The notes beneath the pieces were generated by a model that did no database searches, was not told the DNA's origin, and saw only the letters and a program-made list of their open reading frames with translations. A stretch of 39,936 nucleotides of DNA from an uncultured Cytophagales bacterium. GTDB lineage: Bacteria; Bacteroidota; Bacteroidia; Cytophagales; JAAEPT01. Both the position numbers and the translations under genes were made by a program. The stretch is taken from assembly GCA_964350605.1 (NCBI GenBank), contig CAYGKP010000001.1, positions 1 through 39,936 on the forward strand. The letters are read 5' to 3'. Below are positions 5,116-22,500 of this stretch, piece by piece; position 1 is the first letter of the stretch; each line of letters starts with the position of its first letter.

Positions 5116-8100
5116 CTAAATGATTAAAGGCTCTTCGTAGTCGTTTTGAATCCCCCCCGAGTTCACTACGTCCACCTTGAACCGGTGGTAAATCGTGTCA
5201 CTTGAGCCATTCGTGGCAGGCAAGAAATCTCCCAGCTCGTATTCAATTGTCTCTTCATTGGACGATACTTGGTTAACCAGTGCCCACTGACCGGCCTCTG
5301 TCATCTTGTACAGGTAGTAAGTACCCGACTTGCACGTACTAGGCCAACTGAGTGTGGGCAGGATCGGGTCTGGCGTCGCGTTGGGATCACCACCATCGTA
5401 GGAAATCGGCGGCGCTGGCGGTGGCGCATCATCAACAATTCGCGTCCGAATAATTTCACTGGGGATAGATGGCACTACCTCCGGCTCCTCATTCTCATTA
5501 ACAATAAACCTCAGAGCCACCAGCCGATAGAACAATGTCTCGGCATAAGGGGGAAACTTCCCTTCTAAGTCCGAGAATACATCTGCTACCGAATCGACAG
5601 AGACAGTAGTGGCTAGCTTCATAGTTCGAACAGTTCGGGCCTCCGCTTCAGTGGTTGCTCGATACATCCGGATACTCGTCACGTTTTCTTCTGGCAAGTA
5701 ACTGCTCAACTGAAAAGCGACTCGTGGCAGTGCCTGCGCTCCACTTGATCGCGGACCAATCACTTCCAGCGTCTTCAACTTTGGCGGCGGCGGAGGCAGG
5801 GCATGCAAGAGTTTAACCGGCGCACTGACAGCGGAAGGGTTGGAAGTCTGCCCATCCGAGGCGATCTCACGCGCTCTATAGAAGTACAACTGGGAGTGCA
5901 TTGCCCCATCAAGCTTGTAATCCGTGAAACGAACGAACACCTCGCCACTTTCAGCATAGCGCCGAGCCATCGGGAATGGATTGAACTCCGAAGATTCGAT
6001 CGGCAAAAGCTGTCCACGTGAGTCCACCACCTTGGGCAGCTCGGGGGAGGTCTGTCGGCCCTGCTCAAGGAATTCGAAGAGAACCGGCTGTGTAGTCAGC
6101 GGGGTAAAAGCATTCGAAATCGCCACGAAAGCTTTAGAGATCGCCGAAGTACCAAAGCCTGGATCATTTTGCGGCAGGATATCATCGGTTAGAAGCTCAC
6201 CACTGAAAGTTGGCGACTTATCGGGCGGCGGAATGAAGTATGAGTTGGCTCCGTACGACTTGAACGCACCTGGAGTGGTGTCTCCACTACCCTGAACATC
6301 CAGGTTGGCCAAGCCACTCCAGTAGTTCGAAAGTACCGACTGATCTTCCAGAGCAATCAGATTGCCTTTTACATCCTCAGCCGTTTCTGTTTCGAACAGG
6401 CTATTCAGCAAAGCTTCCTGGCTTGTACGGTAAAAAACAAACCCATAAGGCGGACGCTCCGGCTCATTAACTTTGATATCGAAGGTGTAGGAGGACTTTC
6501 CGTATCGATCCGGACGCGTAGCATAAAGCGGCCCGATTGGTGGGTCCGGCGGAATGGGGTCAACAATCTTTTTCGCGACAAGAAGGGAGGCTGGTGATAG
6601 GTCTGAGGAAATGTTGTTGATGCTATCACGCGAACGCGCTGCCATCAAAGACACTCTTGATAGCTCACCCTCACCAGGTAGTATTTGCACGCGCTGGAAC
6701 AACCCAGGGAGCTGCTGTGGCTCAGCTTCCAGGTACAATCTGTATCCGGGGTGAAAATTGACCGATACGTCTACTCCCGTCTGAATAGGGTCCGAATCGT
6801 AGTTAGCATCGACCGCATAGATCTCCAATGGATTCTGAGAAACGATCGTTACAACAGAGAGCTCTTTGGTCTGATTGGGATCATATTGACCTGTGCTCGA
6901 GAAGCTGATCCGTGCCGTGCCTTGATACCAACTCACCCCTGTCTGAGGATGATCAGCCAGTGAGGTTCCCGAGGCATAAGCGATGTGGTATAGTCCACGA
7001 AACACCTGAACCTCCTGTAAGAGACCTTGTGAGTCTGGTTCGAAAACTGTCTCGGTGATCGGATCTACCTGCGCTGGTTCAAAAATACCGCCGATGAACC
7101 TTGTCTCTTGGTTCCCGTTCTCGTCTTCGAAAACCTCTTCGTGATTGCTTAGGTCAATTAGGTCAACGGTGTAAGCTAGTTTTTGCGGCCAATTGCTTGG
7201 CTCCAGCAGGTTCTCGACCATAAGGAAGCACTCGTCTGCTCCTGGAAAGGAATACTCTTTGCGTCCTAAGAAAGTCCTATTGCTTGATGGATCATCGGTC
7301 GCTGTTTGCTCAACGGCTTTGATTTGAATCTGAGGCTCGGTACCCGAATTGAGTTGAAGCACTGAGAATACTTCTTGACTCTCGTTGGTCGATAGGACAC
7401 CACCAAGGTACTTCCCCTCCTCGCCTACAGATATCTCGGGTATAACATCTGATGATGGGTTCGTGCTGTAGTTGCGATAGAACCCGGTGAGGAGCGTGAT
7501 ATCTCCTTCACCGTTATCAACGACTTCCTTGATTGTGCCTCGAACACTGTCAGGTGGGTCCAACCGAAAGAAGAAATCGATCTTATCGGCCCGACGGTAA
7601 GCAGACTGGTGAACGTGATTCCAGAGAAAGGTCACGCGTGTCAGCTCAGGCTCATCAAGCGGCTGATTGATCCGAGCCAGCAACTCGTCTTGTTCCGCCT
7701 GGCTGGTTAGAACCAACGGCTTCTCTTTTTGGATATACTGAACAGCAAAATTAGCTGGCGGCAGGAGAGTATTCCGTAGCGGAAAGTCCGTTAAGTCGGT
7801 TTGGGCGAGCTGGCCAACCGGAGATACTCGTTGGAAGATATTAACTCCGTAGAGCGCGTACTCATGGACTCCACTTTCGGTCTCTACATGCGTGTAGAAC
7901 TCTTCCACGGGCTGGGAAGGAAAAAGTAACGACTCAGGAATCTCGATTATCTCCGGTTCGTTGAATTCATCCAACTCGACGATTTTTTGGCTGTTGTATT
8001 CGTCGTCGAATAATAGCTCTGGCTTTCTCCACTCACTCTCACCCAATAGGCGGTACTCCAAACCCACACGTAGCGGAATACTAGCCTCACTCATGTCGAA

Positions 8101-11100
8101 CTCGGCACCAGCGAGTTCAGAAAGCACGTTGATTCTATTCCCTCTAGCTTCGTATTCAAACAACTGAATCTTCGGATCCTCGGCTTGGGAAAGGCGTATA
8201 AACCGTTGATCGGTCTCCCAACTGTAGCCCTGTGGATCCGTTAGTTCCGTTTGAGAGTCGTCAGCGTTTAGAATGAATAGCCCATAATCGACTGGTTCTA
8301 GACTCGGGCTGTATGGGAGGCGCTCATCCTCCATTGAAGTTGGAAGGCTTAACTGCACATGAGAAGTCTCAAGATTTGCAGGAAAACCAAAAAAAGTACT
8401 GCCTGGATCGGCTCCTGAAGTGTACACGACTGAATAGATGTATCGATTGCCCTCGCTACCGATCAAATTATCTGGTGCGCACAATGTGGGCGCCCAAGCG
8501 CCTCCGCCAAGTGCGGTTAGAGCCGGAGAGAATTGCTGAAGGGCTCCGTCATTCTCGATAGGTGATGAGTCTGCTGCAACCGTACCTTCCTCTTCGTCCA
8601 GTTTCCACCAACCTACCAACCCTTCCGGGTCGATCGATTCGGCGCAACGTCCATACGAGAAATGATCTAACTGCTCCTGACTGCTGAGAGATCTATTGTA
8701 TATACGTGCATGGCTTAAGCAGCCACGATACTCCCTAGAATAGCCATAATCAGAAACGCCCTGAGGCCACCCTCCTAAGGCCAGATAAGCCAAATCGTTC
8801 AATTGTGCAGTCCCCGATCCAACGGGACCTACAAATTGGGTCAACTGATCACTGATCTGGAAGCGCCAGCCCTCACCTGTGCTGGGATTAAATGCTTTTG
8901 TGACGGATATAAATAGCCACTTTGGATCCAAAAAAGAGGGGAACCGAACCTCAGTACCCTGATTACCCACAGAACCGGCATCAAAGGCTAGCGAGTACAC
9001 TACCTCGTCAGCCAGTAAATCAACCCATTTAATAACGCGTACCGCTAGACGCAGCTCAACAGCGAAGTACTGAAACGATGTAACCAGTGCAAATGCGACA
9101 TCACCTTGCTCCCTGATTGTAATTGAGGAAGGGCTTGAGGTTATTCCTTGCCGCATTTCTGGTTTGATCCATATCTCAAAAGTCTGCAGGTTGTCTTCAT
9201 ATGCAGCGTTCGCCGGAATTGACACGCGTTGATCGTCGGCTGAAAAGCACAGCGAATACTTGTTCTCATTGTCAGATATGTCTCCACAAGGTGAACCTAC
9301 CCAAGCTCCTCCTCCCAGTTCTGTCAACTGGTAATTGTAATTCACCAGGTTAGCAGGGTTTTGGATGGTTGAACTGTCGGCTGCCAAGTAACCCTGTGCT
9401 TCGTCCAGTTTCCACCAACCCACAAGTCCAGTAGTGTCAACAGTTTGGGTGCAACGACCCAGCAAGTACTGATCTCGTTGTTCTTGTTCGCTTAGCGAAC
9501 GGTCGTATATCCTGATTTGGCCGATGCACCCGAGATAGTCTTTGTTGTTATTTTGGTAGATGTCATTCCTCAAACCACCCAGATAGATCGGGTCATAATT
9601 ATTGATCCCACCATAGAAAGAGCCTGAGGGTGCTCCCGGCAAAAAGATGGCATCTTGGTCGTTAAGAATTATCCTCCAACTCGCCGGACCAGTCGCCGAA
9701 ATCGATACGAACATCCACTCAGGGTCGTCCTGAGTTTCATACTCACTTTCTAGAGTTTGATAGCTGTTCCCCAATTGCACGAAAACCGAATAGCGCACCT
9801 TATCGACCGTCTGATCATACCATTTGGTACACTGCACAATAAGTCCGGCAGGCGTTCCATTGACTGGATTGTAGGTACTCATCTTAGAGATGAGTACCTG
9901 AGAGGCATAATACAAGTCTGAGAAGTTCACTGGTGGGGCGGTGAACTGTTCATCTAGATCTGGCTTAAACCATACCTCAATTGATTTCGCGTCATAGTAC
10001 TCGTTTCGATGGCCAATGTGAGCCCGATGACCTGCTACGCTCATGCAAAGCGCATAATCCAGTTCTTCCTCTGCCAGATCGGTGTCGATGTAGCCCAAGC
10101 CCAACATTCTCGCGACGTGAAAATCTTGCGCCACCGTTCGGAGCATATCAAGCGAGCTGATCTCTAACGCATTGGCCGCCTCTGGGTCTTCTCCATCCAG
10201 GGTCACAAGTTCCTCGCCCCCGTCCAATGGATAGCTCTTCAACCCGGTAGGGTTCGTGGAGTCCGTGCTTAGTTCAAGGTATTCGATTACCCCTGATTTG
10301 AGACCCTGCGAAGTAGTCCACTTGTCTTTGTAGTTGTCTACCCGCACCCTCGCACCATCGTTGTAGTGGGGCCATCTCTTATCGACCAAAAAGCGCTCGG
10401 GATTCTCAAGGCGCTCGAACACTTCTTCGTTATCCAAGCTCAAAGCAAAAGCCCCAAGCGACTTCCACTTCTCGGCTTCATTGACGGCGTGGAAGTAGGG
10501 CTCGTATAAGACGAAATGAGCTGAATTGACACGGGCATTCTCGGCTTTCCATCGCAAGCCACCGATGTGTTCGCCAAGTAGCTCAATGGTATCTGTAATG
10601 GCGGTCGGGTAGTCTTTAGATTTTCGAAATGCAATACCCGCCTCCAAACTGGGATATGGTTCGCGGTTTACTCCCTCCATGAGAAGAGACCCATTGTCCT
10701 GAGCCTGAACGTTTAGCTTTATGCTGAACGCTCGATCGGGTCGATCCAACCAAAAGACCAATTCATCCTGGTACTGGTCGAAAAAGTTCTGGCGTGTTGT
10801 TCCACTCGCGAAAATGTTACCCCCCACTGAAGCCTCAGCTACCTTATACTCTGACCTGTTGAGGAAATAGAGGTAAATTACGTGAGTGGGGTTGGAACCA
10901 GGTCCAGCCAGTTGAAGCTGGAAGCGCCACTGCATAACGTTTCCCCTACGCAGGACTTGAGGTATCACATTAGGGTCCAAAAGGTCGACCTCCAACGTCG
11001 TTCCGGGGTAAGGGATATATGGCGTGCGATACAATCGGACAAAGTCGTTTTCACGGTTGTACCCGTAGGTAGCTTCGTACTCCTGCTCGCTAGTGAGGTT

Positions 11101-11256
11101 TCCCTTAGGGAGGTGATTCTCTCCCAGCTCGTCTTCTAGCTCCCAGCGGGTGTAGATACCGCGTGGGGTGTAGTCATTACCTAGTGAGCCTGCCGCCTGC
11201 AGTGAAAGAAACGGCGATGGGAGGCGTAGTCGAGAGAGGAGTTGAATCTTGCTCAT
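5116..11256 (-). CDS. Giant hypothetical protein (2046 aa) with two LamG (Laminin_G_3 / concanavalin-A-like lectin) modules and FN3/Ig-like-looking C-terminal segments
   Basis: An uninterrupted 6.1-kb ORF. The LamG hallmarks occur twice (aa ~403-927, nt 8476-10050): ...YLGCIGQIRIYDRSLSEQEQ...GRC...GLVGWWKLDE..G..AADSS...GGGAW. The C-terminal part has proline linkers (PPPPPKLK, DDAPPPAPP) and beta-sandwich-like strings (TLSWPSTCKSGTYYLYKMTEAGQWALV...YHRFKVDVVNSGG). There is no convincing signal peptide (MSKIQLLSRLRLPSPFLSLQAAGS has arginines inside the hydrophobic stretch). No T9SS CTD, YD/RHS repeats or Walker motifs were noticed. Confidence 0.9.
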   Translation of the reverse strand: MSKIQLLSRLRLPSPFLSLQAAGSLGNDYTPRGIYTRWELEDELGENHLPKGNLTSEQEYEATYGYNRENDFVRLYRTPYIPYPGTTLEVDLLDPNVIPQVLRRGNVMQWRFQLQLAGPGSNPTHVIYLYFLNRSEYKVAEASVGGNIFASGTTRQNFFDQYQDELVFWLDRPDRAFSIKLNVQAQDNGSLLMEGVNREPYPSLEAGIAFRKSKDYPTAITDTIELLGEHIGGLRWKAENARVNSAHFVLYEPYFHAVNEAEKWKSLGAFALSLDNEEVFERLENPERFLVDKRWPHYNDGARVRVDNYKDKWTTSQGLKSGVIEYLELSTDSTNPTGLKSYPLDGGEELVTLDGEDPEAANALEISSLDMLRTVAQDFHVARMLGLGYIDTDLAEEELDYALCMSVAGHRAHIGHRNEYYDAKSIEVWFKPDLDEQFTAPPVNFSDLYYASQVLISKMSTYNPVNGTPAGLIVQCTKWYDQTVDKVRYSVFVQLGNSYQTLESEYETQDDPEWMFVSISATGPASWRIILNDQDAIFLPGAPSGSFYGGINNYDPIYLGGLRNDIYQNNNKDYLGCIGQIRIYDRSLSEQEQRDQYLLGRCTQTVDTTGLVGWWKLDEAQGYLAADSSTIQNPANLVNYNYQLTELGGGAWVGSPCGDISDNENKYSLCFSADDQRVSIPANAAYEDNLQTFEIWIKPEMRQGITSSPSSITIREQGDVAFALVTSFQYFAVELRLAVRVIKWVDLLADEVVYSLAFDAGSVGNQGTEVRFPSFLDPKWLFISVTKAFNPSTGEGWRFQISDQLTQFVGPVGSGTAQLNDLAYLALGGWPQGVSDYGYSREYRGCLSHARIYNRSLSSQEQLDHFSYGRCAESIDPEGLVGWWKLDEEEGTVAADSSPIENDGALQQFSPALTALGGGAWAPTLCAPDNLIGSEGNRYIYSVVYTSGADPGSTFFGFPANLETSHVQLSLPTSMEDERLPYSPSLEPVDYGLFILNADDSQTELTDPQGYSWETDQRFIRLSQAEDPKIQLFEYEARGNRINVLSELAGAEFDMSEASIPLRVGLEYRLLGESEWRKPELLFDDEYNSQKIVELDEFNEPEIIEIPESLLFPSQPVEEFYTHVETESGVHEYALYGVNIFQRVSPVGQLAQTDLTDFPLRNTLLPPANFAVQYIQKEKPLVLTSQAEQDELLARINQPLDEPELTRVTFLWNHVHQSAYRRADKIDFFFRLDPPDSVRGTIKEVVDNGEGDITLLTGFYRNYSTNPSSDVIPEISVGEEGKYLGGVLSTNESQEVFSVLQLNSGTEPQIQIKAVEQTATDDPSSNRTFLGRKEYSFPGADECFLMVENLLEPSNWPQKLAYTVDLIDLSNHEEVFEDENGNQETRFIGGIFEPAQVDPITETVFEPDSQGLLQEVQVFRGLYHIAYASGTSLADHPQTGVSWYQGTARISFSSTGQYDPNQTKELSVVTIVSQNPLEIYAVDANYDSDPIQTGVDVSVNFHPGYRLYLEAEPQQLPGLFQRVQILPGEGELSRVSLMAARSRDSINNISSDLSPASLLVAKKIVDPIPPDPPIGPLYATRPDRYGKSSYTFDIKVNEPERPPYGFVFYRTSQEALLNSLFETETAEDVKGNLIALEDQSVLSNYWSGLANLDVQGSGDTTPGAFKSYGANSYFIPPPDKSPTFSGELLTDDILPQNDPGFGTSAISKAFVAISNAFTPLTTQPVLFEFLEQGRQTSPELPKVVDSRGQLLPIESSEFNPFPMARRYAESGEVFVRFTDYKLDGAMHSQLYFYRAREIASDGQTSNPSAVSAPVKLLHALPPPPPKLKTLEVIGPRSSGAQALPRVAFQLSSYLPEENVTSIRMYRATTEAEARTVRTMKLATTVSVDSVADVFSDLEGKFPPYAETLFYRLVALRFIVNENEEPEVVPSIPSEIIRTRIVDDAPPPAPPISYDGGDPNATPDPILPTLSWPSTCKSGTYYLYKMTEAGQWALVNQVSSNEETIEYELGDFLPATNGSSDTIYHRFKVDVVNSGGIQNDYEEPLII

Positions 11257-11262
11257 AACCGC

Positions 11263-14200
11263 TTAAGGAATCAAAAGGGAAACTGGGCGCGTAACAGCTG
11301 AGCCCTTGGCCACGAACTGGTAGCCGTTGTAGATCATCTCTTGGAAGTGCAGCTCGATTTCATCGAACGGCAAGACATTGTAGGTGGTGGTGATAAAGAC
11401 CTGTGTGCAATCTTTCGAAGGGATAATGACAGGCGTGAATCCAGGCCCAAGATTAGGCTGCCCTGGTAGCGTGATACGCAGGACTTGAGAGAAGATTTGT
11501 TCTCTGGCTCTGGGGTCGCATAAAGGCTCTGGGCTTCGCACCAACATACCATAGGTAAATGATCCGCTTCCCGGAATTCGGAAGATGTTCACTTCGGTCG
11601 TTGTTGGCACTTCCAAGGCATCAAGGCCCAATCCTGCCCGCATTATGCGGTCAAATGTCATTGCATACTCTTGTCGCAAAGGGTCCTCAGGTGCCAGACT
11701 ATCTGCAAGAATCTGTGCCAGCACAGTTTGGTCCTTCTGAATGTGCTCTAAGTTGTAGATCGCCTCTCTCCCCTCTCCAAGGTCTATGCTTCCTATGTGC
11801 TCAGCGAACGAGCCGTAGCGTGACGTTTGAACCGCATACTTGTGGAGCTCATGCTCGACTCCCTCGAATTGCGATACCAGGTGAACCGTGTAGAGCTTCT
11901 CGCGTCTCAAGTCCGGTGGAGAGAGGAAGAAGTAATACCCCTTCTGAAGGTCGAACTGGAACTTTGTACAGTTAGCTCCATCTGGCAGGGAGTTAACAGC
12001 CATGTTGTGGATCACTTGCGTATCCAGAGAGTAGCTGGCTTCTTCCTCACGAATCCAACCATCCGATTCGCTGGTTAAGGAGAGCGACTGATTGGTTTCG
12101 GTTTCCTTAACGATCGCGTCAAGCTTATTGGCCAGTGCAGGGCTTCCCAGGTTGGCAGGCCAATCACCGAACAGATTGTACGTCCCGGGTTGTTTGAAGA
12201 ATACTCTAAGGTCATTGTGACCTTGCTTATAGTAGAGCGGTTTGGCACCAATGAGATTGCCGTCGACCGAGGGATAGGATCGCCCGAAATCCAGGTAGGG
12301 CTTCAATGAATAGAGCCCCTCGTTTTCCAAGTTTTCCAATTCGACTTGCTGAGCCGCCTCGACTGCATCGAAATAGTGCCGTATGGGGCCTCCGGTTTTA
12401 AAACCGAAGACATACGACTGATTGCTGGTATTTCCCTCGACTACATCACGCCCTTCAATTCGTATTGCGTAGGCACCATTCGGTCTCCAAACTGGTTGTA
12501 AAACATTCTGTAAACCGAGTCCGAAATAGGCCAGTTGTTCCTCACGAGTCTCATTGATCTCAACCTGCTGTTCATTGAAACGTCTGGTGGCTTCCGTTTC
12601 CCAACACAGCTCAATTAGAGACACTTCTCGATACTCCGCACCTCCACCAAGCACACTAAGTACTGCTTCCTGAGTCATATTGTCCAAGCCGCCATCAAAG
12701 GTCAAAGTTCGCAAACACGAAGGCTGCAGTCCACATAGCTCATACTGCCAGGCACCTCCATTCAATGCGGTCAGCGCAGGAGCAAAATCTTCAAGTATTC
12801 CATGATTGGCATAGGGCGAACTATCGTGTGCAACTGTGCCTTCCAATTCATCAAGTTTCCACCAACCGATTAATCCTGCCCGTTCGATATCCTCGGCGCA
12901 GCGGCCTCTCCTAAAGTGAGCCAGCTGCTGTTCTATCGAGAAAGCTCGATTGTAAAGTCTGGCTTGCGAAAGACACCCATCGAAGTCTTTGTTGGGTAAC
13001 CATGTGACGAAATCCGGAGAGTTACCCAAATGGATATGTGCCACGTCGACAAGGTTTGATGTGGCAAAGGGTCCAAGCGGATATACCCCAATGACGGGTT
13101 GATCCTGTATCTGGAAGTTCCACTTACTGGTGAAGTCAGTATCCAACTCATCGTTGAACCCAACACCTGAGGCCGAAATGAACAACCATTCCGGATCCTT
13201 GTCAGCTGGGTAACGCAGATCAGGTGGAGGGCCACCTGGAGGTAGCGCTGTACCTGCCTCTACGTAAAATGAGTAGACAATTTCATTGGTCGAACTGTCC
13301 AGCCATTTGATCGTCTTAACAAGCAGACGCAACCAGTTGCCTTGATAAGTCGTGGAAGAGAAAATCGTGAAGACCACCTCACCACGGTCAATCAAGGCAG
13401 TATAATCCGGTGAGCTTGTCACTCCGGTATCCAGAACTGGCTTGGCCCAAATCTCGAAGGCTCGGATGTTATTCTTATAGGGCGTGATCGCCGGGATTGA
13501 GACGCGGTGATCTGGGTCGCTCATGCACAAAGCACCGCCCCTAGCCGGAGGCTCCCCTGGAGGCAAACATATCTCCGTTGCCCAAGCTCCGCCTCCCAAA
13601 GCAGTCAGTGCTGGTGCGAATTGTTGAAGGACTCCGTTATTATCAAGCGGTGAAGAGTCCGCAGCGACTGTCCCCTCCTGCTCGTTGAGCTTCCACCAGC
13701 CAATCAGACCATTGGCTATAATCGTCTGAGCGCACCTCCCCAATTCATATTGAGCCCTCTGCTCAGACTCGAATAGCTCCCGATTGTACAGACGAACTTG
13801 CCCAATACAGCCCAGATATTCTTTGTTATTGTTGGCGAAAATGTCTGAGCGAAGGCTTCCAATAAAGAGCGGCTGATCATTCTCAACACCCAAGTATAAT
13901 CCACCAGCTGGACCAGAGGGGAATGAGTAGGCGGTCTGGCTGTTGATGATAATTCGCCAGCTTCCGTTGAAAGCTGCGGAAACGAAAACCCACTCGGGGT
14001 CCTCAAGTTGTTCGAACTCAACCTCACGATTCGCATAGTGGCTACCCATCTGTACGAATACTGCATACTTGACTTTATCGGTCGGTTGATCTAACCATTT
14101 AGTCACAGAAATGACTATACCATTTGGTAATTGGGTCGGGCCCGATGCGGACATTTTCGAGACGACAATTTGTGAGGCTTCGTATAGGTCGAAGTAATTG

Positions 14201-17200
14201 GATGGAGTCGCAGTGAACTGAGGATCAACCTCAGGCTTAAACCATGCTTCGACGGTTTTTACATCCAGGTACTCCGCGATATGTCCAACTTCAACCTTCT
14301 GACCTGAAGCATTGAAACACAGGGAAGTTCCTTCTTCTATCAACGGCAAGCCTTCCTGCCCGCCACACGTTTCTTCTACCCAGGCACCGCCGCCAATTTG
14401 TGTGCGGCCACTCGTGTAACCGGTCAGTACGCCATCTGAGTTTGTCCATGCCAGCCCCGAATTGGTCGCCTGGGTTCCCTGTAACTCGTCCAGTTTCCAC
14501 CAGAGACGAAGGTTCGTAGTATTGGCATTCACTGCACAACGTCCCCCTTCATACTGATCATCAATCTCTTGGGCGGAGAGAACAAAATCCTGGTAGTACT
14601 GGATGTGATCGACATACCCCTCAAAGTCTCCCTCTCCGAGGATGATTGGGCCGTCGTTGTATACATCTCCGGGTGTTCCTGTCGACTCTGACACCCACGT
14701 TTCAACTGAAGGCTGACCGTTTACAGTCAAATAGTAATCGGCTAGTTGAGTACCTGTTCGCTGAACAGTGATCATGTGCCAACCTTCAGCCTCCGCAACA
14801 ACAAACCTCTTGACGATTCGGATGTGTCCGTTCCAACGGTTGTTGTAGTGAAGCTCGACAAACAAGCTATATCCAGATGCCTGAGTCGGAGCCAGAACGG
14901 TCCGAATAGTAATCCCATGACCATCGGAGGCCATCTTCTTGAATAACACTTCCAAGTGGTCGTTGATATCTTGACCTACCTGTCCATTGACTAGCGTCTC
15001 ATCAATCGGTGTCTGCTTCAACCATGCAACGATCGAAAAAGAGCCGCCGAATGTGAACCCACCATGGTTGGGGCTTGCAACTTGTACAGACTCCCCAACT
15101 TGAATGTGTAGTGCAGGCGAACTCTCCTCTTCGGTTTGTAGACCGCAAGGGTCGACCCTGTATGTCAAACGATAAGCCGTCACCGGTTCGGGAAACCGAA
15201 TCGAAACTGTCATCGGCTTTTCCAACTCGTCCTCTTGGAGTGCTACAAGTGCCTCCGTTAAGTTGGTGCCAGGGGCATACTCAGACTCCTCTTCGACTAC
15301 TTGAATGGCCTTACGGCTTGAGGCAGATGGAATGTCGATTTTGATCCAGGCCTTCCGATCAAACTTCCATTCGCCCTCGCGATAGCGTCGGAAGCCGTTG
15401 GATTGGCCTTGCCAGTTCAAGCACTCCCAGTCGACCAACGGCTGGGTACAAAACATCAAGCTCGCATTGAGGCCATAGTCCTCAACGATATTGGTCTCAT
15501 CAGGTCCGGTACCCTGACTTAAGAAGGCAAAGGGGTTTCTTGCAAGAATTCGCAGATGTGTCTTTTGTCTTGGCTGCTCATGTGCCTGCCAAGCACCGAT
15601 ATGCAATAAGCTTGCTGGGACAGAATCTAGGAAGGCTTTGATCGGCAATGCCTCGTATGGGTCATATGGCACCCAAATATCCCCGACAGGGTCGCGGGTA
15701 AGAATTTCAACTTTGTCGAGGTGAAAGCGATGTTGAACTTGGTCGGAATGCCCTCTACGAGGAGAAATCTTTACCACATTATCGGTCGGAACGAACCTGC
15801 CTGTCATTCTTGACAGTACTGGATCTTTGCCCTTCGGCTTTAGACTATAATTAAATTGGATATCGACGAAGCTATCCTGCGGAATGATCGTCTCTTCGAG
15901 CAAGTCAAACCAGGATTCCTCAAGTGCACTTCCCAGATAAGCGATGGGAAACTCCTCTAGCGTTGTCATGTTCAACGCCTTCACTGCATTGCTCGGCTCA
16001 AGAATCTGGAATGGCTCAAGTTGGCGTCGACGGTCGAACACCCATCGAAGCGAAACTCGGATACCTTTCTTCTTCCGCTTAAACGGAATCTTGATCTTTA
16101 CCTCAATGTACCCTTCGATAATGAAAGGTCTGGGTGCTTCCGCTCCCAAATAGGCCCCCACTCCAAATCCGAATCTGAATTTCCAGATTCCGATTTCTAG
16201 CCCCCCGGCGATTAGAACGTGACCACCAGCTTGAACGGGTTCGGTGCTAATGCGCACGCCCATATCCAGGTAAGCATATAGTCGAAAGCGAATCGGGCCA
16301 AAACGTTTATCAAGATTGAAACTTGCACCTGCGCCCAAAGCCACCCCTCGAGCTGAAAGCTGCAGGTATGCATTCAAATTGAATACTCGGAGTATTCTGG
16401 CACGGATTCGCTTGGAGGGCGGGCTGGCCTCACCAATGTTGAGGTACCACCCCCCCGGATTCTGAAAGAAGAATCCGAACTCCATGTTGGCGGAAATATC
16501 GGCGATCACGCCGCTCGACTGTGGTAATCGAGCCTGAACACCAGCACCACCGGTAATTGACTCTGGGCTAACAGCCAAAAAGGCACTGAAAGGCGGGTCC
16601 TCTCGATCATCCAATCCGACCTGTCGACGGAGAATACCCGCTTGACCTTGGAGCAGTAAGGTCTCGGGAGCGGTTAGTAGTAGGAATACTTTGCTTGAGA
16701 AAATTCGAGGGTCTCCTTTTGTGGCAATTGCTGTGCCCGCTCCTCCTACAAAGCCTGGCTCTTTTGAGAACTTGTCGACGGTGATGCCCTCTTTCGGCGG
16801 GGCTTTGTAATACTGCCACCAACTTGCTGAGTCCGCTAAGCCAATGGCCGATTTATCAGCGATGTACCCACTGCCGACTAGGCCTCGAAAGCCATAAATT
16901 CCTAGCCCCGTCGGACCTAGGGGAATTGGAGTTGGTAAATTGATTTTTGCATCGACTAGAAAAGAAGGATCATCTGGGACGTACGAAATGTCACCTTCAA
17001 ACTTGAGCTTCAAGCGAGGAAAGCTAACACCGACGGCTCCTCGATACTCACTAACCGAGCCTCCTTGCTCCTGGCCAAGTAGGGCCAAATACCCCTCAAT
17101 AATCGCAAGAGCTTGCTCTTTAGAGGCCGTGCCAGGGATAATTAGGCGTATCTCAAGACGTTGAATGCGAAGGAATGAGTGGAAAGCCTTTCCGGCACCT

Positions 17201-19056
17201 GCATCGGTATCAATTGTGAAAAAGAACTGGATGCCATCCCCTCGGACGTCTAATCCCGCTGGCTGAAGATTCAAGCTTCCATCAAAACCGAAATAGGCGT
17301 ACTGTCGAAGTTGGCCTTCATGATCTTGTTCATAGGTCCCGAGTGTCAACGCGCTGACCTGTATTTTGGCAGGGCCCAGTTTCAAGTCGAACGTGCGCGG
17401 CAAAAGCTGTACGCCGCCATCGAACTCAATCCTGCCATTCGAGTAGATGCGTAGTTTGGAGATCGGAATCTTACCAGGGAGCAACTTATCGGCAAGTCCA
17501 CCAGGGACAGGAGCTGTGATCTCCAGCTCCCCAGCTACTTCAAGAGCATAGACCTCGCCGAGCTTTTCCAGAGAAAGACTACGAAGAGTAAGCTTGAAGA
17601 CTTCGTTCTCTTCCGAGGGGAAAGAAAGCACAAGCCCTTCTGGCTCAATAGCTGCGAACGTAAAATCCCCGTTTTCGAAAAACTGAATGGTAACCTCCAA
17701 CTCCGCGGGATTCCCTTCTGAGTCTTTAACATTGAAGTTCTCCGGAAAATTGAGCGTGGCTCTGGCGGAAGAGCGCACCAGACTACCCTGACGAAACTCC
17801 ACCTCAGCTTCTTTCAACTCCAGACCGAAGCCACCTAAGGTCGCATCGTAGGAGTCATATTCATCCTCACCTACTACCCGAGTTTCCAGTCCGATCGTCC
17901 CACTGAAGCCACCTGAGCCGATGATGAGATTACGCCCTTTGAGAATGGCTTGCTCCGTAGGGTTCCCATTCTGCGTTAGGATAGGCGGAAACCCAACTTC
18001 GATCTCCTCGATGAAGACTCCTCGGAAGTCAGCCGGATAACCTGCATCCTGAATGGGTTGAATATTGGTAGTTCGGGAAAGGTCTAGCCAAACATTGTCG
18101 ACTTGAAAAGTGAAGCCCGAGTTACCGATTTGAACTGTAGGGCCAGAAACTCCCTGGTCAGTATCGATACCCGTTGTGACCTGAGTTGACTGATCAATGC
18201 CGAAGCTGCCACGTGTGTCAAAAGTGAATTGAGCGGGCTCTGTTCTCAGAACATACTTAGACGGCTCGGCGTAAGGTTCGCCGCTTGGCTGAAGCGGCAG
18301 TAAAAAGCTTCGAGGAATGGCAACCTCCAAACCAAGTGAAGTGCCCGCCCTTACTCTCGGAACTAGCATCTCCTGCAAACGGCTCAAAATTGGCAGTCCT
18401 CCTCCGTCGTAAAGGCGATTGATGGCATCAAGTCCGCTCGACAGATCGGAAGCAGGCAGCACGTAGATCGTAAAGAGTATCTCCCGAACAGACGGCAGCG
18501 ACCCACTCGCGTCGATCTGTGCTATTAGGTCATCTATCTGGTCAGAAAGCTCAGTTGCTGACGGCATGGATACCGAGCTACCCCCGTATTCTGCATTGAT
18601 TTTATTGACTAGGCTTTGAACATCCTCAGAGAGCTCAATCTCTAAAACCGCGTTGGTCAGCAAGCGCTCGTCTAGCGGATCGGTTACTGTGAGCAGGAGG
18701 TCGAAAAAGGACTGCGGCGAGCCATCGAAGCGCGAAAATTCGAAGTCGTCGAAGTAGCGGAGGATCTCCCAATCAAACTGAAGGGTGAGGTCGAATTCGG
18801 TGGTGTTGGGAAGGGTGCCGGGATTAATGGAGAATTCCAGATCGAGGCCGGGAACCGTGAAGCCAATGTTCTGGAAGGCGATGAGTTGGACGTAAAAGGA
18901 ACGCGTTGACCCGGCGGTGTTGACGAATTGAATCTCCTTAACAAAGAGGTTCGGGATCAGCGCATCAAGCCCTCCGTCGATGAAGCTCAGGGCCTCGGGC
19001 AAATCGTCTGCAGAAAGCAGCGAGGTGACAGGTAGGTAGTTGTGGGTGGAGGGCAT
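11263..19056 (-). CDS. Giant hypothetical protein (2597 aa): ~1300-aa beta-rich N-terminal region of unknown family, three LamG modules, ~490-aa C-terminal region
   Basis: An uninterrupted 7.8-kb ORF. The LamG array covers aa ~1320-2110 (nt 12727-15099), with repeated ...R(L/I)YNR..S..EQ...GRCA...GLIGWWKL(D/N)E..G..A.DSS...GGGAW...C. The N-terminus MPSTHNYLPVTSLLSADDLP has no signal peptide. The start ATG (19054-19056) overlaps the upstream stop as TAATG. No catalytic or NTPase motif was recognised. Confidence 0.9.
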   Translation of the reverse strand: MPSTHNYLPVTSLLSADDLPEALSFIDGGLDALIPNLFVKEIQFVNTAGSTRSFYVQLIAFQNIGFTVPGLDLEFSINPGTLPNTTEFDLTLQFDWEILRYFDDFEFSRFDGSPQSFFDLLLTVTDPLDERLLTNAVLEIELSEDVQSLVNKINAEYGGSSVSMPSATELSDQIDDLIAQIDASGSLPSVREILFTIYVLPASDLSSGLDAINRLYDGGGLPILSRLQEMLVPRVRAGTSLGLEVAIPRSFLLPLQPSGEPYAEPSKYVLRTEPAQFTFDTRGSFGIDQSTQVTTGIDTDQGVSGPTVQIGNSGFTFQVDNVWLDLSRTTNIQPIQDAGYPADFRGVFIEEIEVGFPPILTQNGNPTEQAILKGRNLIIGSGGFSGTIGLETRVVGEDEYDSYDATLGGFGLELKEAEVEFRQGSLVRSSARATLNFPENFNVKDSEGNPAELEVTIQFFENGDFTFAAIEPEGLVLSFPSEENEVFKLTLRSLSLEKLGEVYALEVAGELEITAPVPGGLADKLLPGKIPISKLRIYSNGRIEFDGGVQLLPRTFDLKLGPAKIQVSALTLGTYEQDHEGQLRQYAYFGFDGSLNLQPAGLDVRGDGIQFFFTIDTDAGAGKAFHSFLRIQRLEIRLIIPGTASKEQALAIIEGYLALLGQEQGGSVSEYRGAVGVSFPRLKLKFEGDISYVPDDPSFLVDAKINLPTPIPLGPTGLGIYGFRGLVGSGYIADKSAIGLADSASWWQYYKAPPKEGITVDKFSKEPGFVGGAGTAIATKGDPRIFSSKVFLLLTAPETLLLQGQAGILRRQVGLDDREDPPFSAFLAVSPESITGGAGVQARLPQSSGVIADISANMEFGFFFQNPGGWYLNIGEASPPSKRIRARILRVFNLNAYLQLSARGVALGAGASFNLDKRFGPIRFRLYAYLDMGVRISTEPVQAGGHVLIAGGLEIGIWKFRFGFGVGAYLGAEAPRPFIIEGYIEVKIKIPFKRKKKGIRVSLRWVFDRRRQLEPFQILEPSNAVKALNMTTLEEFPIAYLGSALEESWFDLLEETIIPQDSFVDIQFNYSLKPKGKDPVLSRMTGRFVPTDNVVKISPRRGHSDQVQHRFHLDKVEILTRDPVGDIWVPYDPYEALPIKAFLDSVPASLLHIGAWQAHEQPRQKTHLRILARNPFAFLSQGTGPDETNIVEDYGLNASLMFCTQPLVDWECLNWQGQSNGFRRYREGEWKFDRKAWIKIDIPSASSRKAIQVVEEESEYAPGTNLTEALVALQEDELEKPMTVSIRFPEPVTAYRLTYRVDPCGLQTEEESSPALHIQVGESVQVASPNHGGFTFGGSFSIVAWLKQTPIDETLVNGQVGQDINDHLEVLFKKMASDGHGITIRTVLAPTQASGYSLFVELHYNNRWNGHIRIVKRFVVAEAEGWHMITVQRTGTQLADYYLTVNGQPSVETWVSESTGTPGDVYNDGPIILGEGDFEGYVDHIQYYQDFVLSAQEIDDQYEGGRCAVNANTTNLRLWWKLDELQGTQATNSGLAWTNSDGVLTGYTSGRTQIGGGAWVEETCGGQEGLPLIEEGTSLCFNASGQKVEVGHIAEYLDVKTVEAWFKPEVDPQFTATPSNYFDLYEASQIVVSKMSASGPTQLPNGIVISVTKWLDQPTDKVKYAVFVQMGSHYANREVEFEQLEDPEWVFVSAAFNGSWRIIINSQTAYSFPSGPAGGLYLGVENDQPLFIGSLRSDIFANNNKEYLGCIGQVRLYNRELFESEQRAQYELGRCAQTIIANGLIGWWKLNEQEGTVAADSSPLDNNGVLQQFAPALTALGGGAWATEICLPPGEPPARGGALCMSDPDHRVSIPAITPYKNNIRAFEIWAKPVLDTGVTSSPDYTALIDRGEVVFTIFSSTTYQGNWLRLLVKTIKWLDSSTNEIVYSFYVEAGTALPPGGPPPDLRYPADKDPEWLFISASGVGFNDELDTDFTSKWNFQIQDQPVIGVYPLGPFATSNLVDVAHIHLGNSPDFVTWLPNKDFDGCLSQARLYNRAFSIEQQLAHFRRGRCAEDIERAGLIGWWKLDELEGTVAHDSSPYANHGILEDFAPALTALNGGAWQYELCGLQPSCLRTLTFDGGLDNMTQEAVLSVLGGGAEYREVSLIELCWETEATRRFNEQQVEINETREEQLAYFGLGLQNVLQPVWRPNGAYAIRIEGRDVVEGNTSNQSYVFGFKTGGPIRHYFDAVEAAQQVELENLENEGLYSLKPYLDFGRSYPSVDGNLIGAKPLYYKQGHNDLRVFFKQPGTYNLFGDWPANLGSPALANKLDAIVKETETNQSLSLTSESDGWIREEEASYSLDTQVIHNMAVNSLPDGANCTKFQFDLQKGYYFFLSPPDLRREKLYTVHLVSQFEGVEHELHKYAVQTSRYGSFAEHIGSIDLGEGREAIYNLEHIQKDQTVLAQILADSLAPEDPLRQEYAMTFDRIMRAGLGLDALEVPTTTEVNIFRIPGSGSFTYGMLVRSPEPLCDPRAREQIFSQVLRITLPGQPNLGPGFTPVIIPSKDCTQVFITTTYNVLPFDEIELHFQEMIYNGYQFVAKGSAVTRPVSLLIP

Positions 19057-19549: not shown

Positions 19550-22500
19550 CTAATCAGTATCTGTAACCGGGTATCGGTATGCAATCAAATTATCAAACAT
19601 CTGTTTGAACTGAATTGGAGAAAACCTCCGGTTCTCAACTGCAGTTAGCGGAGGAGAGGGGTACATCATATTCTCGTACTGATCAACAAAATCAGTATTA
19701 CCAACTGTCAAATTCTTATTGTACTCAGAATGAGGCTTAATATCGGATATGTTCTCAGAAGGCGGAACTGAGGGCGGACTAGATAAGTAAAAATTCTGAT
19801 TCAGCTCATAGCTATCCTCAGTATCCCGCTTGTTTAAATAGTACAACCTCTGATTACTTAGTGGTTGGCCAAATACCTCGTCAAATTGTTGACTAGAAGT
19901 GCCAGATCTCCTACCCATTTGAGTGTGCAGAGTATGCTTTAATCCAGCCACATGTCCGAGTTCGTGATAAACAGTATACCGAGCAATATTAGTATTCAAT
20001 AGCGGATGTGAGGTGGCAATTCCACCAATTGAATGTAAGTTGATTAGTGCTGGTCCAAGGTCTTGATCTTTGATAAGATCATACCCCTCCTTGGCAAGAT
20101 AGAAGGCAGGAAATGGCCCTCCATTTGTTGAGAACGGTATGCTAAGTTGTATAAGATTGTCTACTGGTGCTTTCAGTATCGAAAGGCCTCTGGTCCCAAT
20201 CAACTCCTCCCTTTCTGCGGGATAATCATAGCTACCATCTCTCGACTTCTTAGCTAGCAGATCGTTTACCTTCTCAGTTGGATGTCTCTGTCCAATATTA
20301 TGAACCCATGGGGAACGGCCCTCCACGATATTAAGATCATCCTTTAAGAAAGTCTTTCCTTGAGATTCTATGTAAGTCTTTGCATTATTTATCTTTTCCA
20401 AATCGATATCATCATCATTAGCAAAATTCTCGACGAACAAAACGGACAATGAAAATGTGCCAGCCAGTAGGTCATGAGCAATTTCTTCAAAAGTATCTAC
20501 CACTTCTATTTGATCAATCAAATATCTTATCCTGTAATTTTTTCCCTCATAAGTAGCAGTAGCTAGGTCTGGCAAATATTCAAATGTGCTTTCAGTATCT
20601 AATGGTTCTTTGCATTGCTCTTCCAAGAAATCCACTGGATCAAACTCTATACTTGTATAGTCCTTCATGGGTGCATCTTCGTTTGGAAGACGATTATAAA
20701 TGTATGTAGGCTTGTGAACATATACCTTGCCAATTCGGACGAAAATAACTCTCTCTTCATTCGGCTGACCTTCATTCTGGATATAAGGCCAAATCCCAAT
20801 GTATTCATTCGAGCTCTCAGGATCTACAAGCTTCCATCCTACTCCATGAACTGAACGCGCTCTTGGATTGTAATAGGCTACGTGCCAATTGGCTGTCAAA
20901 GAGGATATTTCAACAGCATTATCTGCAATCCATTGAGAGTCAATCTCCAGGCTAACAATAGAAACTTGCCTGGTAAGTATACCGTCCTGGTCAAGTTGTG
21001 AGAACACAAACAAGTGCTGTAGGCCCAATAAGCTTGGCACTTGATGAGGCGAAAGAACCAAATCGCTACTTTCCAGATTCCGGAGAAAATTATTCTGATC
21101 TGAAAATGCCGGAAGAGTAAGATTGTACTCAGGTCCAACTAAAGTCGACCACTTAAAGCCCTCTGTGGGTGATAGCAAGTAATGTATCTTGTCCTCCTCT
21201 ACGACAAGAACAGTAGAAACAAAACCAGAAAAACCCAACTCTTCCATTCCATCAACAAATCGTTGATAGTGCAGATTTGCTGTCTGAAACCTAGGCTTAG
21301 AACTCTCAGAGAAGTCCCATGGAATCACATCGCTAATTACCTCTGGAAGTACGAATGTGTTGTCGAGGTAGTAGTTAGCATTAATCACAGGAGAACTCTT
21401 AGGCGGCGCGACCTTCTCCGGGTCGATCCGCTGGATGTAAGACAACTTCACATAACTGGCAATCGAGTTACTGCCTGCAGCCGCAGTGGCCAGTTCGATC
21501 TCATCGGTCCAACCACTCGTAAACGTTGGCTCGATGTACCTGGCCTTGTGACGCGGCACCTCCGGGAAGCGCTTGTAGGGGCTCGCTCCATCCAGATAGA
21601 CCAAGGGCTTGGTGTTGTCGGCCTCTGGTAAAGAGAGGCGTATGTGCGTCTTGCTATTTGCAACCCCCGAACTCAACTCCGAACCCTCAATGATGTGAAT
21701 CGGCCAGTCATTGCTTAGGTAGGCTCGCCCCGAAGGGGCCGTGTTCCCATCGAATGATAGATTGACGTTGACGTTGTAGCCTGCGTAGCTACTATAGTTA
21801 CTGTAGTAGTTGAGGCTATAGCTGTTCTCATTCCGAATGTCCAGATACACCCGGCCGGGGTGAGCGAACTTGGTCAACACGTCGGTGTAGAGGTCTTGAT
21901 CAGTCAGGGTCGAAACCGTGGAACCCTGCAAAACTCGAACACCACTACGTGCGTGAAGGCCATAGAATGCTGCGGGGTCGATGTAGTGAATCACCTTCTC
22001 CCTCGCCGCACGGTTCTCCAGTGCGTCAGTTGCGTCTTGAGGCGTAGCGATCGTTGGGGCGGCCGTAACGGTAACCAGGCCATCAGAAGCCCGCAGCTCC
22101 CCAAGCGTAGGATTGCTCCCATATGCCTCCAGAACGATTTCAAAACCAATCTCGCTGCTGGCCGCAAACTCACCCAAAGTCTGGCCTGCTCGAACACGCG
22201 TCGGCTTGAACGCTGTTAGATGGTTAAAAAAAAGTGCGTCGATCTTCTCAGAATCAAGCTTTTGATCGTCACCAGTTGCCGATGCTGTGAAATGCAGCCC
22301 CAGTGTTTCTTCGGTTGGATCAACCTTAGCGACACCCAAAGCGTCTGCATAAGCTGCCTGGTTCTCGTGTAACTGTGCAGCCAAGTCATTCGCTGTTGTC
22401 AGCACGATCGCCCCTGAGCCTTGGACTAAACTACTCTTCGCAACACCCCTGTAGACAAAGTACTTGACCCGAAAAGGCAGGTGAGGATTGTGATTAAATG

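What the first reader, a model, noticed from the sequence alone, without database searches (positions are those of the whole stretch)
8476..14322. The same ~525-aa double-LamG cassette is present in both giant proteins, with junctions that do not match domain boundaries
Seen: aa 1579-2109 of the 2597-aa protein (nt 12730-14322) and aa 403-927 of the 2046-aa protein (nt 8476-10050) align end to end, with roughly half the residues identical by eye. An example is LCFNASGQKVEVGHIAEYLDVKTVEAWFKPEVDPQFTATPSNYFDLYEASQIVVSKMS against LCMSVAGHRAHIGHRNEYYDAKSIEVWFKPDLDEQFTAPPVNFSDLYYASQVLISKMS. Both end ...PALTAL(G/N)GGAW....LC. Established: Laminin_G_3 domains normally begin with the (L/I)xxWWxLDE..G...DSS strand and end with the RxYNRALS..E motif. 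Here both cassettes start after that first strand and end after the first strand of a next domain. They therefore share the same off-register junctions, which argues for one duplication or insertion event rather than independent domain accretion. The 2597-aa protein has a third, more divergent LamG upstream (aa ~1320-1578). Inference: the LamG array is a mobile target-binding module. In the 2046-aa protein it interrupts the sequence right after the conserved-looking FHVARMLGLGYIDTD segment.
Basis: partly seen in the sequence, partly recalled or inferred. Interest (0 to 1): 0.6.

Follow-up and report, generated by a model that had tools for sequence, protein, structure and literature searches.

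The report
Phase-shifted LamG cassette shared by giants
Two neighbouring giant genes carry the same pair of lectin-like (LamG) domains, cut out of phase with the normal domain borders and spliced into a tight turn of each host protein; it is a tidy natural case of circular permutation by insertion, not a new kind of system.

Summary
P0001 aa 1578-2109 and P0002 aa 402-927 are 48% identical over 536 columns (E 9e-152). Among 1.84 billion representative proteins each cassette is the other's nearest relative by about 400 bits.

The register claim also holds. Canonical LamG_3 domains start with the WWKLDE hairpin and end after the RxYNRALS helix, as shown by crystal constructs 4qvs and 5ho0 and by array ends in 62 other proteins. 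Here every array starts with a body and ends with a hairpin.

Fourteen of 16 P0002 homologues lack the insert. It sits in the turn of a conserved host beta-hairpin (ARMLGLGYID / xYIYLAEY). P0001's three-unit array probably sits in a similar turn; that placement was read by eye.

New here:
- A related operon (L014, P0087/P0116) has LamG arrays at the same sites and in the same register in both giants, so the odd junctions are ancestral.
- The window's four B/C units form one clade (100/99). A two-unit block was therefore copied between the two genes after that lineage split.
- The copy is old: synonymous sites are saturated and nucleotide identity is 53%.
- A third homologue (L001) carries a single LamG in yet another register.

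Best reading: whole repeat periods cut out of phase still encode complete jelly rolls by circular permutation, displayed as fast-evolving binding heads. The hairpin-to-body pairing and the ligand remain untested.

The parts
11263..19056 (-). Giant gene 1 (P0001, 2597 aa). The scaffold is conserved at aa 1-1216 and about 2120-2597; the centre is hypervariable.
5116..11256 (-). Giant gene 2 (P0002, 2046 aa). The scaffold is conserved at aa 1-392 and 938-2046.
12733..15144 (-). P0001 LamG array, aa 1305-2108: three body+hairpin units, A (nt 14365-15144), B (13567-14364) and C (12733-13566). It lies between host strands ...AYRLTYRVDPC and GLQPSCLRTLTF...
12730..14322 (-).
8446..10077 (-). P0002 insert, aa 394-937: linker LAEEELDY, unit B' (aa 394-657, nt 9286-10077), unit C' (aa 658-926, nt 8479-9285), linker APDNLIGSEGN.
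10084..10113 (-). Host strand ARMLGLGYID (aa 382-391), the first arm of the conserved beta-hairpin whose turn receives the insert.
8419..8445 (-). Host strand RYIYSVVYT (aa 938-946), the second arm of that hairpin. In 14 homologues it follows the first arm after about 5-12 residues (about 30 in P0011).
8479..8652 (-). Terminal hairpin module of P0002 (GRC...GLVGWWKLDEEE...GGGAWAPTLC, aa 869-926): canonical first strands with no body after them.
12733..12906 (-). Terminal hairpin module of P0001 (GRC...GLIGWWKLDEL...NGGAWQYELC, aa 2051-2108): no body follows it.
9286..9459 (-). Internal hairpin module of P0002 (aa 600-657), between bodies B' and C'.

Best explanation
The cassette is a whole number of repeat periods (two in P0002, three in P0001) of a LamG_3 tandem array, cut in the loop between strands 2 and 3 instead of at the canonical domain border. 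Each period reads 'body (strand 3 to the RxYNR strand and helix), then hairpin (WWKLDE...GGAW, bracketed by two cysteines)'.

Because LamG termini lie side by side, such a phase-shifted segment can still fold into complete jelly rolls as a circular permutant. There are two ways: each hairpin folds back on its own body, or the last hairpin wraps round to complete the first body. Which one applies is inferred, not shown. In either case the two ends of the segment come together. That is what allows it to be spliced into the tight turn of a host beta-hairpin: shown for P0002, and read by eye from the alignment for P0001.

History, shown by comparison:
1. The phase-shifted array was already present at these two sites in the common ancestor of this operon and of the L014 operon.
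2. In the window's lineage one unit duplicated in tandem into B and C.
3. The two-unit block was then copied or converted between the two giant genes.
4. Both copies have since diverged under purifying selection until synonymous sites saturated.

Function (inferred): the arrays are surface-displayed, fast-evolving ligand-binding heads on two uncharacterised scaffolds that probably work together.
For: - Similarity and nearest-relative status.
- Canonical register. Single-domain crystal constructs 4qvs_A (chain 7-221 of 227) and 5ho0_A (643-846 of 848) begin at the W.FDE strand and end after the RIY..ALS helix. In 62 other multi-LamG proteins, arrays start with a lone hairpin in 34 and end with a hairpin-less body in 35, 28 of them at the protein's C-terminus.
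- The window's arrays read BH-BH-BH and BH-BH.
- Insert in a hairpin turn. For P0001.
- Same sites and same register in P0087, L014 giant-1 and P0116.
- Tree. All 11 giant-protein units form one clade (100/100). The window's B, B', C and C' form one clade (100/99), with C-C' at 100/100.
- Identities: B-B' 51%, C-C' 46%, cross-lineage units 17-31%, host orthologues about 40%.
- Age: pS 0.82, pN 0.36, nucleotide identity 53%; no long DNA repeats.
- Fold. The AF2 model has mean pLDDT 66, bodies 70-87, and the strands of both hairpins 65-80, the terminal one included. Foldseek gives probability 1.0 to tandem LG pairs.
- Precedent in the same family. L001's single LamG_3 matches Pfam positions 13-112 (36.1 bits) as encoded, and 13-149 (44.1 bits) after the leading 57 residues are moved to the end in silico.
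- The terminal hairpin keeps its W(W/M/P)xLDE motif in all five arrays despite about 60% scaffold divergence.
Against: - No coordinates were available, so hairpin-to-body contacts were never seen. pTM is only 0.49, the GGAW strand scores 35-42, and the host flanks score below 50.
- The host strands GLGYID / RYIYSVVY might themselves complement body B'. This was not excluded.
- Ligand binding is inferred from the fold only. Pfam scores are modest: LamG_3 41.9 bits in P0001, while in P0002 only LamG_2 passes its cut-off.
- The direction of the block copy is undetermined, and the B-B' node has weak support (82/56).
Confidence: 0.72

Rival explanations
1. Single ancient duplication or insertion followed only by vertical descent. 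The two cassettes have been separate since before the window and L014 lineages split, and their similarity is just slow evolution.
For: Synonymous sites are saturated, so the copy is old. Both lineages share sites and register.
Against: Positional orthologues across lineages are only 17-31% identical, against 46-51% within the window and about 40% for the scaffolds. The window's four units form an exclusive clade at 100/99.
Confidence: 0.1
2. Independent accretion of generic LamG_3 domains into each giant. The resemblance would come from shared family motifs.
For: Other hits to the cassette are confined to the RIYNR-WWKLDE-GGAW motifs. P0004 gained a canonical LamG_3 at its C-terminus independently.
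Against: There is 48% identity end to end, including the variable body strands. The gap to the next database hit is about 400 bits. The units are monophyletic against canonical units.
Confidence: 0.02
3. A currently mobile or recombining specificity cassette, exchanged recently like polymorphic-toxin or phage receptor-binding tips.
For: The insert is present or absent among homologues. The arrays are the fastest-evolving part of the proteins. Hairpin similarities do not follow body similarities: 70% vs 48%. The operons lie in low-GC or defence islands.
Against: Nucleotide identity is 53% and third-position identity 34.5%. The only DNA repeats are 27-30-nt motif matches. There is no further copy in the 2.36-Mb assembly and none in 60 related genomes. 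No recombinase or repeat flanks the cassette.
Confidence: 0.08
4. The junctions really do break domains. Body B' (and unit A in P0001) lacks its first two strands, and the terminal hairpin is a non-functional remnant.
For: The AF2 GGAW strands and flanks are of low confidence.
Against: The terminal hairpin motif is kept in five arrays of two lineages over about 60% scaffold divergence. Its strands reach pLDDT 65-80. pN is far below pS. A single-period permutant exists in L001.
Confidence: 0.08

Closest known systems
Laminin_G_3 (PF13385) domains of the concanavalin A-like lectin/glucanase superfamily, e.g. PDB 4qvs (S-layer domain protein) and the C-terminal domain of arabinanase 5ho0
   Same: Same fold and motifs: altFDG strand, WxKP strand, RIYNRALS helix, W.FDE..G...DSS..G hairpin. 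A Pfam hit passes its cut-off in both giants, LamG_3 in P0001 and LamG_2 in P0002. Foldseek gives probability 1.0 to LG domains.
   Different: The order along the chain is rotated: the hairpin follows its body instead of preceding it. The arrays begin with a body and end with a hairpin. Two or four conserved cysteines per unit are not a general LamG_3 feature.
Swaposin (the plant-specific insert of aspartic proteinases) and the permutation-by-duplication model of circular permutation (Ponting & Russell 1995; reviewed in PMC3320104)
   Same: A segment taken out of phase from a tandemly repeated domain, one or more whole periods long, is inserted inside another protein (for the model; here).
   Different: The fold is different (beta jelly roll, not a four-helix bundle). 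Here there are two or three periods rather than one. The same permuted array sits in two adjacent genes and was later copied between them.
Concanavalin A versus favin (first known circular permutation; PMC3320104)
   Same: Same structural superfamily, and it shows that this jelly roll tolerates new termini.
   Different: ConA is permuted after translation by cleavage and ligation. Here the permutation is in the gene, and the cut point is different.
Tandem LG/LNS pairs of laminin alpha2 LG4-5, neurexin and Gas6
   Same: These are the best structural matches to the two-domain model. They are ligand-binding heads.
   Different: They are eukaryotic, in canonical register, not loop-inserted, and about 10-13% identical.

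Membership tests
Laminin_G_3 / LamG jelly roll (PF13385, PF02210) | Profile match above the curated cut-off | tested here: met
   P0001: LamG_3 41.9 bits against a cut-off of 27.6. P0002: LamG_2 25.2 against 22.9, while LamG_3 at 23.0 is below its cut-off.
Laminin_G_3 / LamG jelly roll (PF13385, PF02210) | Two-sheet jelly-roll fold | tested here: met
   AF2 bodies have pLDDT 70-87. Foldseek gives probability 1.0, E 1e-11 to 1e-9, to tandem LG pairs. The model is of medium confidence and its coordinates were not inspected.
Laminin_G_3 / LamG jelly roll (PF13385, PF02210) | Canonical chain order: the W.FDE hairpin comes first and the domain ends after the RxYNRALS helix | tested here: not met
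   The arrays read body-hairpin, with no leading hairpin and a trailing one. The canonical order is shown by 4qvs and 5ho0 and by 62 other arrays.
Laminin_G_3 / LamG jelly roll (PF13385, PF02210) | Ligand (glycan or protein) or Ca2+ binding at the loop rim | not testable with these tools
   No coordinates and no assay.
Natural circular permutants made from tandem repeats and inserted in a host protein (swaposin type) | The segment spans a whole number of repeat periods, with the cut pieces at opposite ends | tested here: met
   There are 2 and 3 periods of 798-834 nt. Each array starts at strand 3 and ends after strand 2. The L001 single-period case was confirmed by re-permutation.
Natural circular permutants made from tandem repeats and inserted in a host protein (swaposin type) | Inserted within a loop of another domain | tested here: met
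   P0002: in the turn between GLGYID and xYIYxxxY, which is empty in 14 of 16 homologues. P0001: between ...YRVDPC and ...LRTLTF, inferred by alignment only.
Natural circular permutants made from tandem repeats and inserted in a host protein (swaposin type) | The separated pieces reassemble into the native fold | tested here: inconclusive
   The terminal hairpin strands have pLDDT 65-80, which suggests they are docked. No coordinates or contacts were available and pTM is 0.49.
Exchangeable specificity cassettes (polymorphic toxin tips, phage receptor-binding modules) | Recent exchange: high nucleotide identity, breakpoints, strain-to-strain replacement | tested here: not met
   Nucleotide identity 53% and pS 0.82. 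Only motif-length DNA repeats. No other copies.
Exchangeable specificity cassettes (polymorphic toxin tips, phage receptor-binding modules) | Presence/absence and content polymorphism at a fixed site among homologues | tested here: met
   The units diverge faster than the scaffolds.

The most novel reading that the evidence does not exclude
The two giants may be subunits of one uncharacterised island-borne machine. Its specificity would be set by plug-in LamG heads at fixed hairpin turns, and the block copy between the genes would reflect selection for both subunits to recognise the same ligand. That would be concerted evolution of paired receptor-binding heads, functionally akin to phage tail-fibre tips but built on unrelated scaffolds. 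The family would also show that LamG arrays can be sampled in any phase, provided that whole periods are taken.
Probability: 0.2. Interest if true: 0.6.

Novelty: new member of a known kind. Interest (0 to 1): 0.38.

Why it matters
It gives a clean, replicated natural example of how tandem-repeat domains can be transplanted into loops of other proteins without respecting domain borders. Whole periods taken in any phase remain foldable. At least two, and probably three, registers of LamG_3 occur in one protein family, and one of them is kept in two genes and two lineages.

It also marks the exact hypervariable sites of two large, wholly uncharacterised scaffolds found in genomic islands, some of them next to defence systems. 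That is where to look for their specificity.

For annotation, it warns that Pfam-style borders under-call such permuted domains. P0002's LamG_3 score falls below its cut-off, and P0116's precomputed LamG_3 hit is only weak.

Tried and rejected
- AF2 of P0002 aa 1-1150 with 11 trimmed homologues and the P0001 cassette gave mean pLDDT 56 and a poor cassette. Its Foldseek hits were uninformative: phage-tail chains at probability 0.05-0.2 and generic CBM jelly rolls.
- Full-length homologues or split rows made MAFFT misplace the host strands.
It was rebuilt from fetched loci.
With A4 it found only one distant locus.
- The look-up of encoding contigs for P0027 returned no DNA.
- No coordinates are exposed, so the wrap-around and per-unit pairings could not be told apart. 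Foldseek aligned lengths did not discriminate either.
- dN/dS could not be computed because pS exceeds 0.75.
- PADLOC and PHROGs gave nothing useful, and NCBIfam gave only one sub-threshold hit on the 175-aa protein. PDB profile searches of both scaffolds gave nothing.
- The idea that 'SIRFPEP...' before unit A is a degenerate leading hairpin was dropped. It aligns with a host strand that is also present in homologues without LamG.
- Literature searches for LamG_3 domain insertion or permutation found nothing specific.
Full report
**Setting.** The window holds a minus-strand gene row from about nt 22708 to 3009. It encodes proteins of 1052, 162, 2597 (P0001), 2046 (P0002), 401, 175 and 131 aa. 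The row lies in a stretch of 45-52% G+C between flanks of 55-59%. An MmeI-type restriction-modification gene is on one side. Ordinary Bacteroidota-type genes, including one with a T9SS sorting domain, are on the other. Neither giant matches any family in Pfam, PADLOC or NCBIfam apart from LamG, and PHROGs gives only a weak hit over the LamG tail-hairpin region.

**Observation.** The coordinates and the quoted peptides are correct. BLASTP aligns P0001 1578-2109 with P0002 402-927 at 48% identity over 536 columns (E 9e-152). Sliding by one unit gives 36%.

I cut the arrays into units running from the 'ALCxS' strand to the cysteine after GGAW.

| Pair | Identity |
|---|---|
| B-B' | 51% |
| C-C' | 47% |
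| B-type vs C-type units | 34-39% |
| Upstream unit A vs any other | 22-32% |

The two-unit block was therefore copied as a block, after B and C had diverged. The similarity is specific. In a word-indexed search of 5.8 billion proteins, P0001 scores 588 bits and the next hit 138. In an exhaustive phmmer search of 1.84 billion representatives of any length, the scores are 585.7 and 180.8. Other hits match only the RIYNR-helix-WWKLDE-GGAW region.

**Is the register really non-canonical?** Yes.
- A profile of the cassette finds single-domain crystal constructs that begin at the W.FDE strand and end just after the RIY..ALS helix. These are 4qvs_A (residues 7-221 of 227) and the C-terminal domain of 5ho0_A (643-846 of 848).
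- In 62 other multi-LamG proteins, the arrays typically read H-BH-BH-...-B. A lone hairpin comes first in 34. A hairpin-less body comes last in 35, and in 28 of these it lies within 15 residues of the protein's C-terminus.
- The window's arrays read BH-BH-BH and BH-BH, with nothing hairpin-like in front.

**Where the cassette sits.** Fourteen homologues of P0002 (30-37% identity) plus one from locus L007 lack it. P0002 residues about 392-405 abut residues about 926-966 in all of them. A clean 16-row alignment shows the host sequence ARMLGLG(Y/H)ID, a loop of about 5-12 residues (about 30 in P0011), and then xYIYLAEYxT. I read this as a beta-hairpin; that reading is an inference. In P0002 the loop holds LAEEELDY, the two units, and APDNLIGSEGN.

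P0001's family has a conserved N-part (aa 1-1216), a conserved C-part (from about aa 2120), and a hypervariable centre. In locus L008 the gene is even split there into two genes. P0001's array lies between the host strands ...AYRLTYRVDPC and ...LRTLTF.... These correspond to neighbouring strands (ACIDFVMS-TTA-LSVTVEYY) in P0019. This second placement was made by eye from the alignment and is less secure.

**Relatives that keep the same odd junctions.** The exhaustive search brought up two key proteins.
- P0087 is a giant-1 homologue, with 39-41% scaffold identity.
- P0116 is a giant-2 homologue, with 39-40% scaffold identity.

Both carry two body+hairpin units at exactly the same host sites and in the same register. 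P0116 lies on contig L014, directly after a 2356-aa giant-1 that is 66% identical to P0087 and has the same two-unit array. The phase-shifted junctions are therefore ancestral to at least two lineages and to both genes. They are not the scar of one event in this genome.

**History.** Units compared across lineages are only 17-31% identical, less than the scaffolds at about 40%. The window's intra-operon pairs are 46-51% identical. An ML tree gives these groupings:
- All 11 giant-protein units together, apart from canonical LamG_3 units: 100/100.
- The window's B, B', C and C' in one exclusive clade: 100/99.
- C with C': 100/100. B with B': 82/56.

The simplest history is a tandem duplication giving B and C in one gene, followed by a copy or conversion of the two-unit block into the other gene's existing array. 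Both steps came after the split from the L014 lineage. The direction of the copy is unknown.

The copy is nevertheless old: pS 0.82 (saturated), pN 0.36, dN 0.50, nucleotide identity 53% and third-position identity 34.5%. A ratio cannot be computed, but pN far below pS indicates purifying selection on both copies. The only DNA repeats are 27-30-nt families at the WWKLDE and GGAW motifs. They recur five times with a period of 798-834 nt. The assembly (2.36 Mb, 241 contigs) has no third copy, and none of 60 genomes of the same family or order has the cassette.

**Other registers in the same family.** The giant-1 homologue on L001 has one LamG_3 in its variable centre, encoded in the order tail (l.iG ... 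vDEVmLigRALt helix), hairpin (vIAKWQLNND..DSSGNG), then the body without its tail.
- A tandem profile aligns it in one piece across the unit border (E 1.1e-11).
- Pfam matches model positions 13-112 (36.1 bits) as encoded.
- Pfam matches positions 13-149 (44.1 bits) after the first 57 residues are moved to the end in silico.

This is a single-period circular permutant in a different phase. P0004, by contrast, has a canonical LamG_3 appended at its C-terminus.

**Structure.** A model of P0002 aa 1-1150 was confident only for the N-terminal host domain. A second model covered aa 378-962 and used 27 two-unit rows from fetched loci.

| Region of the second model | pLDDT |
|---|---|
| Mean | 66 |
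| Bodies | 70-87 |
| Internal hairpin strands | 70-78 |
| Terminal hairpin strands | 65-80 |
| GGAW strands | about 35-42 |
| Host flanks | below 50 |

Foldseek matches tandem LG pairs with probability 1.0. That the terminal hairpin is as confident as the internal one suggests both are docked on a body. Both pairings give complete domains and bring the cassette's ends together, as a turn insertion requires. I hold them at roughly even odds.

**Function.** This is inferred only. LamG domains are ligand-binding modules. Here they are the fastest-diverging part of the proteins, are present or absent among homologues, and sit in exposed turns. These features fit specificity heads. Related operons lie next to CBASS and ArdC (L001), Kiwa and CBASS (L008), an integrase (L007) or a Toprim primase (L014). 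This suggests an island-borne conflict or mobile-element system. The scaffolds have no sequence relatives in the PDB, and I do not claim a system-level function.

**Comparison with known cases.** Out-of-phase excerpts of tandem repeats inserted into another protein are the classic permutation-by-duplication / swaposin situation. The concanavalin-like fold is the historic example of a permutable fold (PMC3320104). I found no report of permuted, loop-inserted LamG_3 arrays in the literature searched.

**Verdict.** This is a real, well-replicated and tidy case of protein-domain evolution, and a new member of a known kind.

Noticed in passing
L001:3-5798 (giant-1 homologue), residues about 1226-1481 of the partial protein: A single LamG_3 is encoded as tail + hairpin + body, a circular permutation in a different phase from the window's. 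The Pfam match grows from 13-112 to 13-149 of 151, and from 36.1 to 44.1 bits, when it is re-permuted in silico.
   Followed up: yes
window 13567-13740 vs 8479-8652 and 9286-9459: Hairpin similarities do not follow body similarities. P0001's internal hairpin after body B is 70% identical to P0002's terminal hairpin but only 48% identical to its positional counterpart after B'. This may reflect local homogenisation of hairpins, or faster drift of P0002's internal hairpin.
   Followed up: partly
window 8479-15144, all LamG units; L014 and P0087 units: Cysteine pattern. The pair flanking each hairpin (GRC ... xxC) is kept in 10 of 11 units across lineages. The pair LC (strand 3) and GC (before RIYNR) occurs only in the window's B and C units, and both are absent from every other unit. 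Neither giant has an evident signal peptide.
   Followed up: partly
L008:3851-9968: In this relative the giant-1 gene is split into two ORFs (1154 and 879 aa) exactly at the hypervariable centre where P0001 carries its LamG array.
   Followed up: partly
L001, L007, L008, L014 flanks; window 1-2421: Giant-pair operons lie beside defence or mobile-element genes: type II CBASS with ArdC and TrwB (L001), Kiwa with CBASS (L008), an integrase (L007), a DnaG/Toprim primase (L014), and an MmeI-type restriction-modification gene in the window.
   Followed up: no
window 19550-22708 (-) vs L007:4395-6428: Only the first about 464 residues of the 1052-aa protein are conserved (29% identity to a 677-aa protein in L007). 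The C-terminal part is not.
   Followed up: partly
P0004 aa 1947-2032 (L001:5824-11952): A giant-2 homologue without the loop insert has a canonical-register LamG_3 appended at its C-terminus. This is an independent LamG gain within the family.
   Followed up: partly
window 10300-11256 (P0002 aa 1-330): The N-terminal host domain of P0002 is predicted confidently (pLDDT 70-92) as a large beta-rich domain. Whole-model Foldseek gave only low-probability hits to phage tail chains (9occ_E, lambda tail tip complex) and to CBM-like jelly rolls.
   Followed up: partly
L010:5409-23466: An unrelated soil-metagenome contig has four consecutive multi-LamG_3 genes (480, 715, 2391 and 2428 aa) after a protein of more than 5700 aa. 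It served only as a source of canonical units.
   Followed up: no
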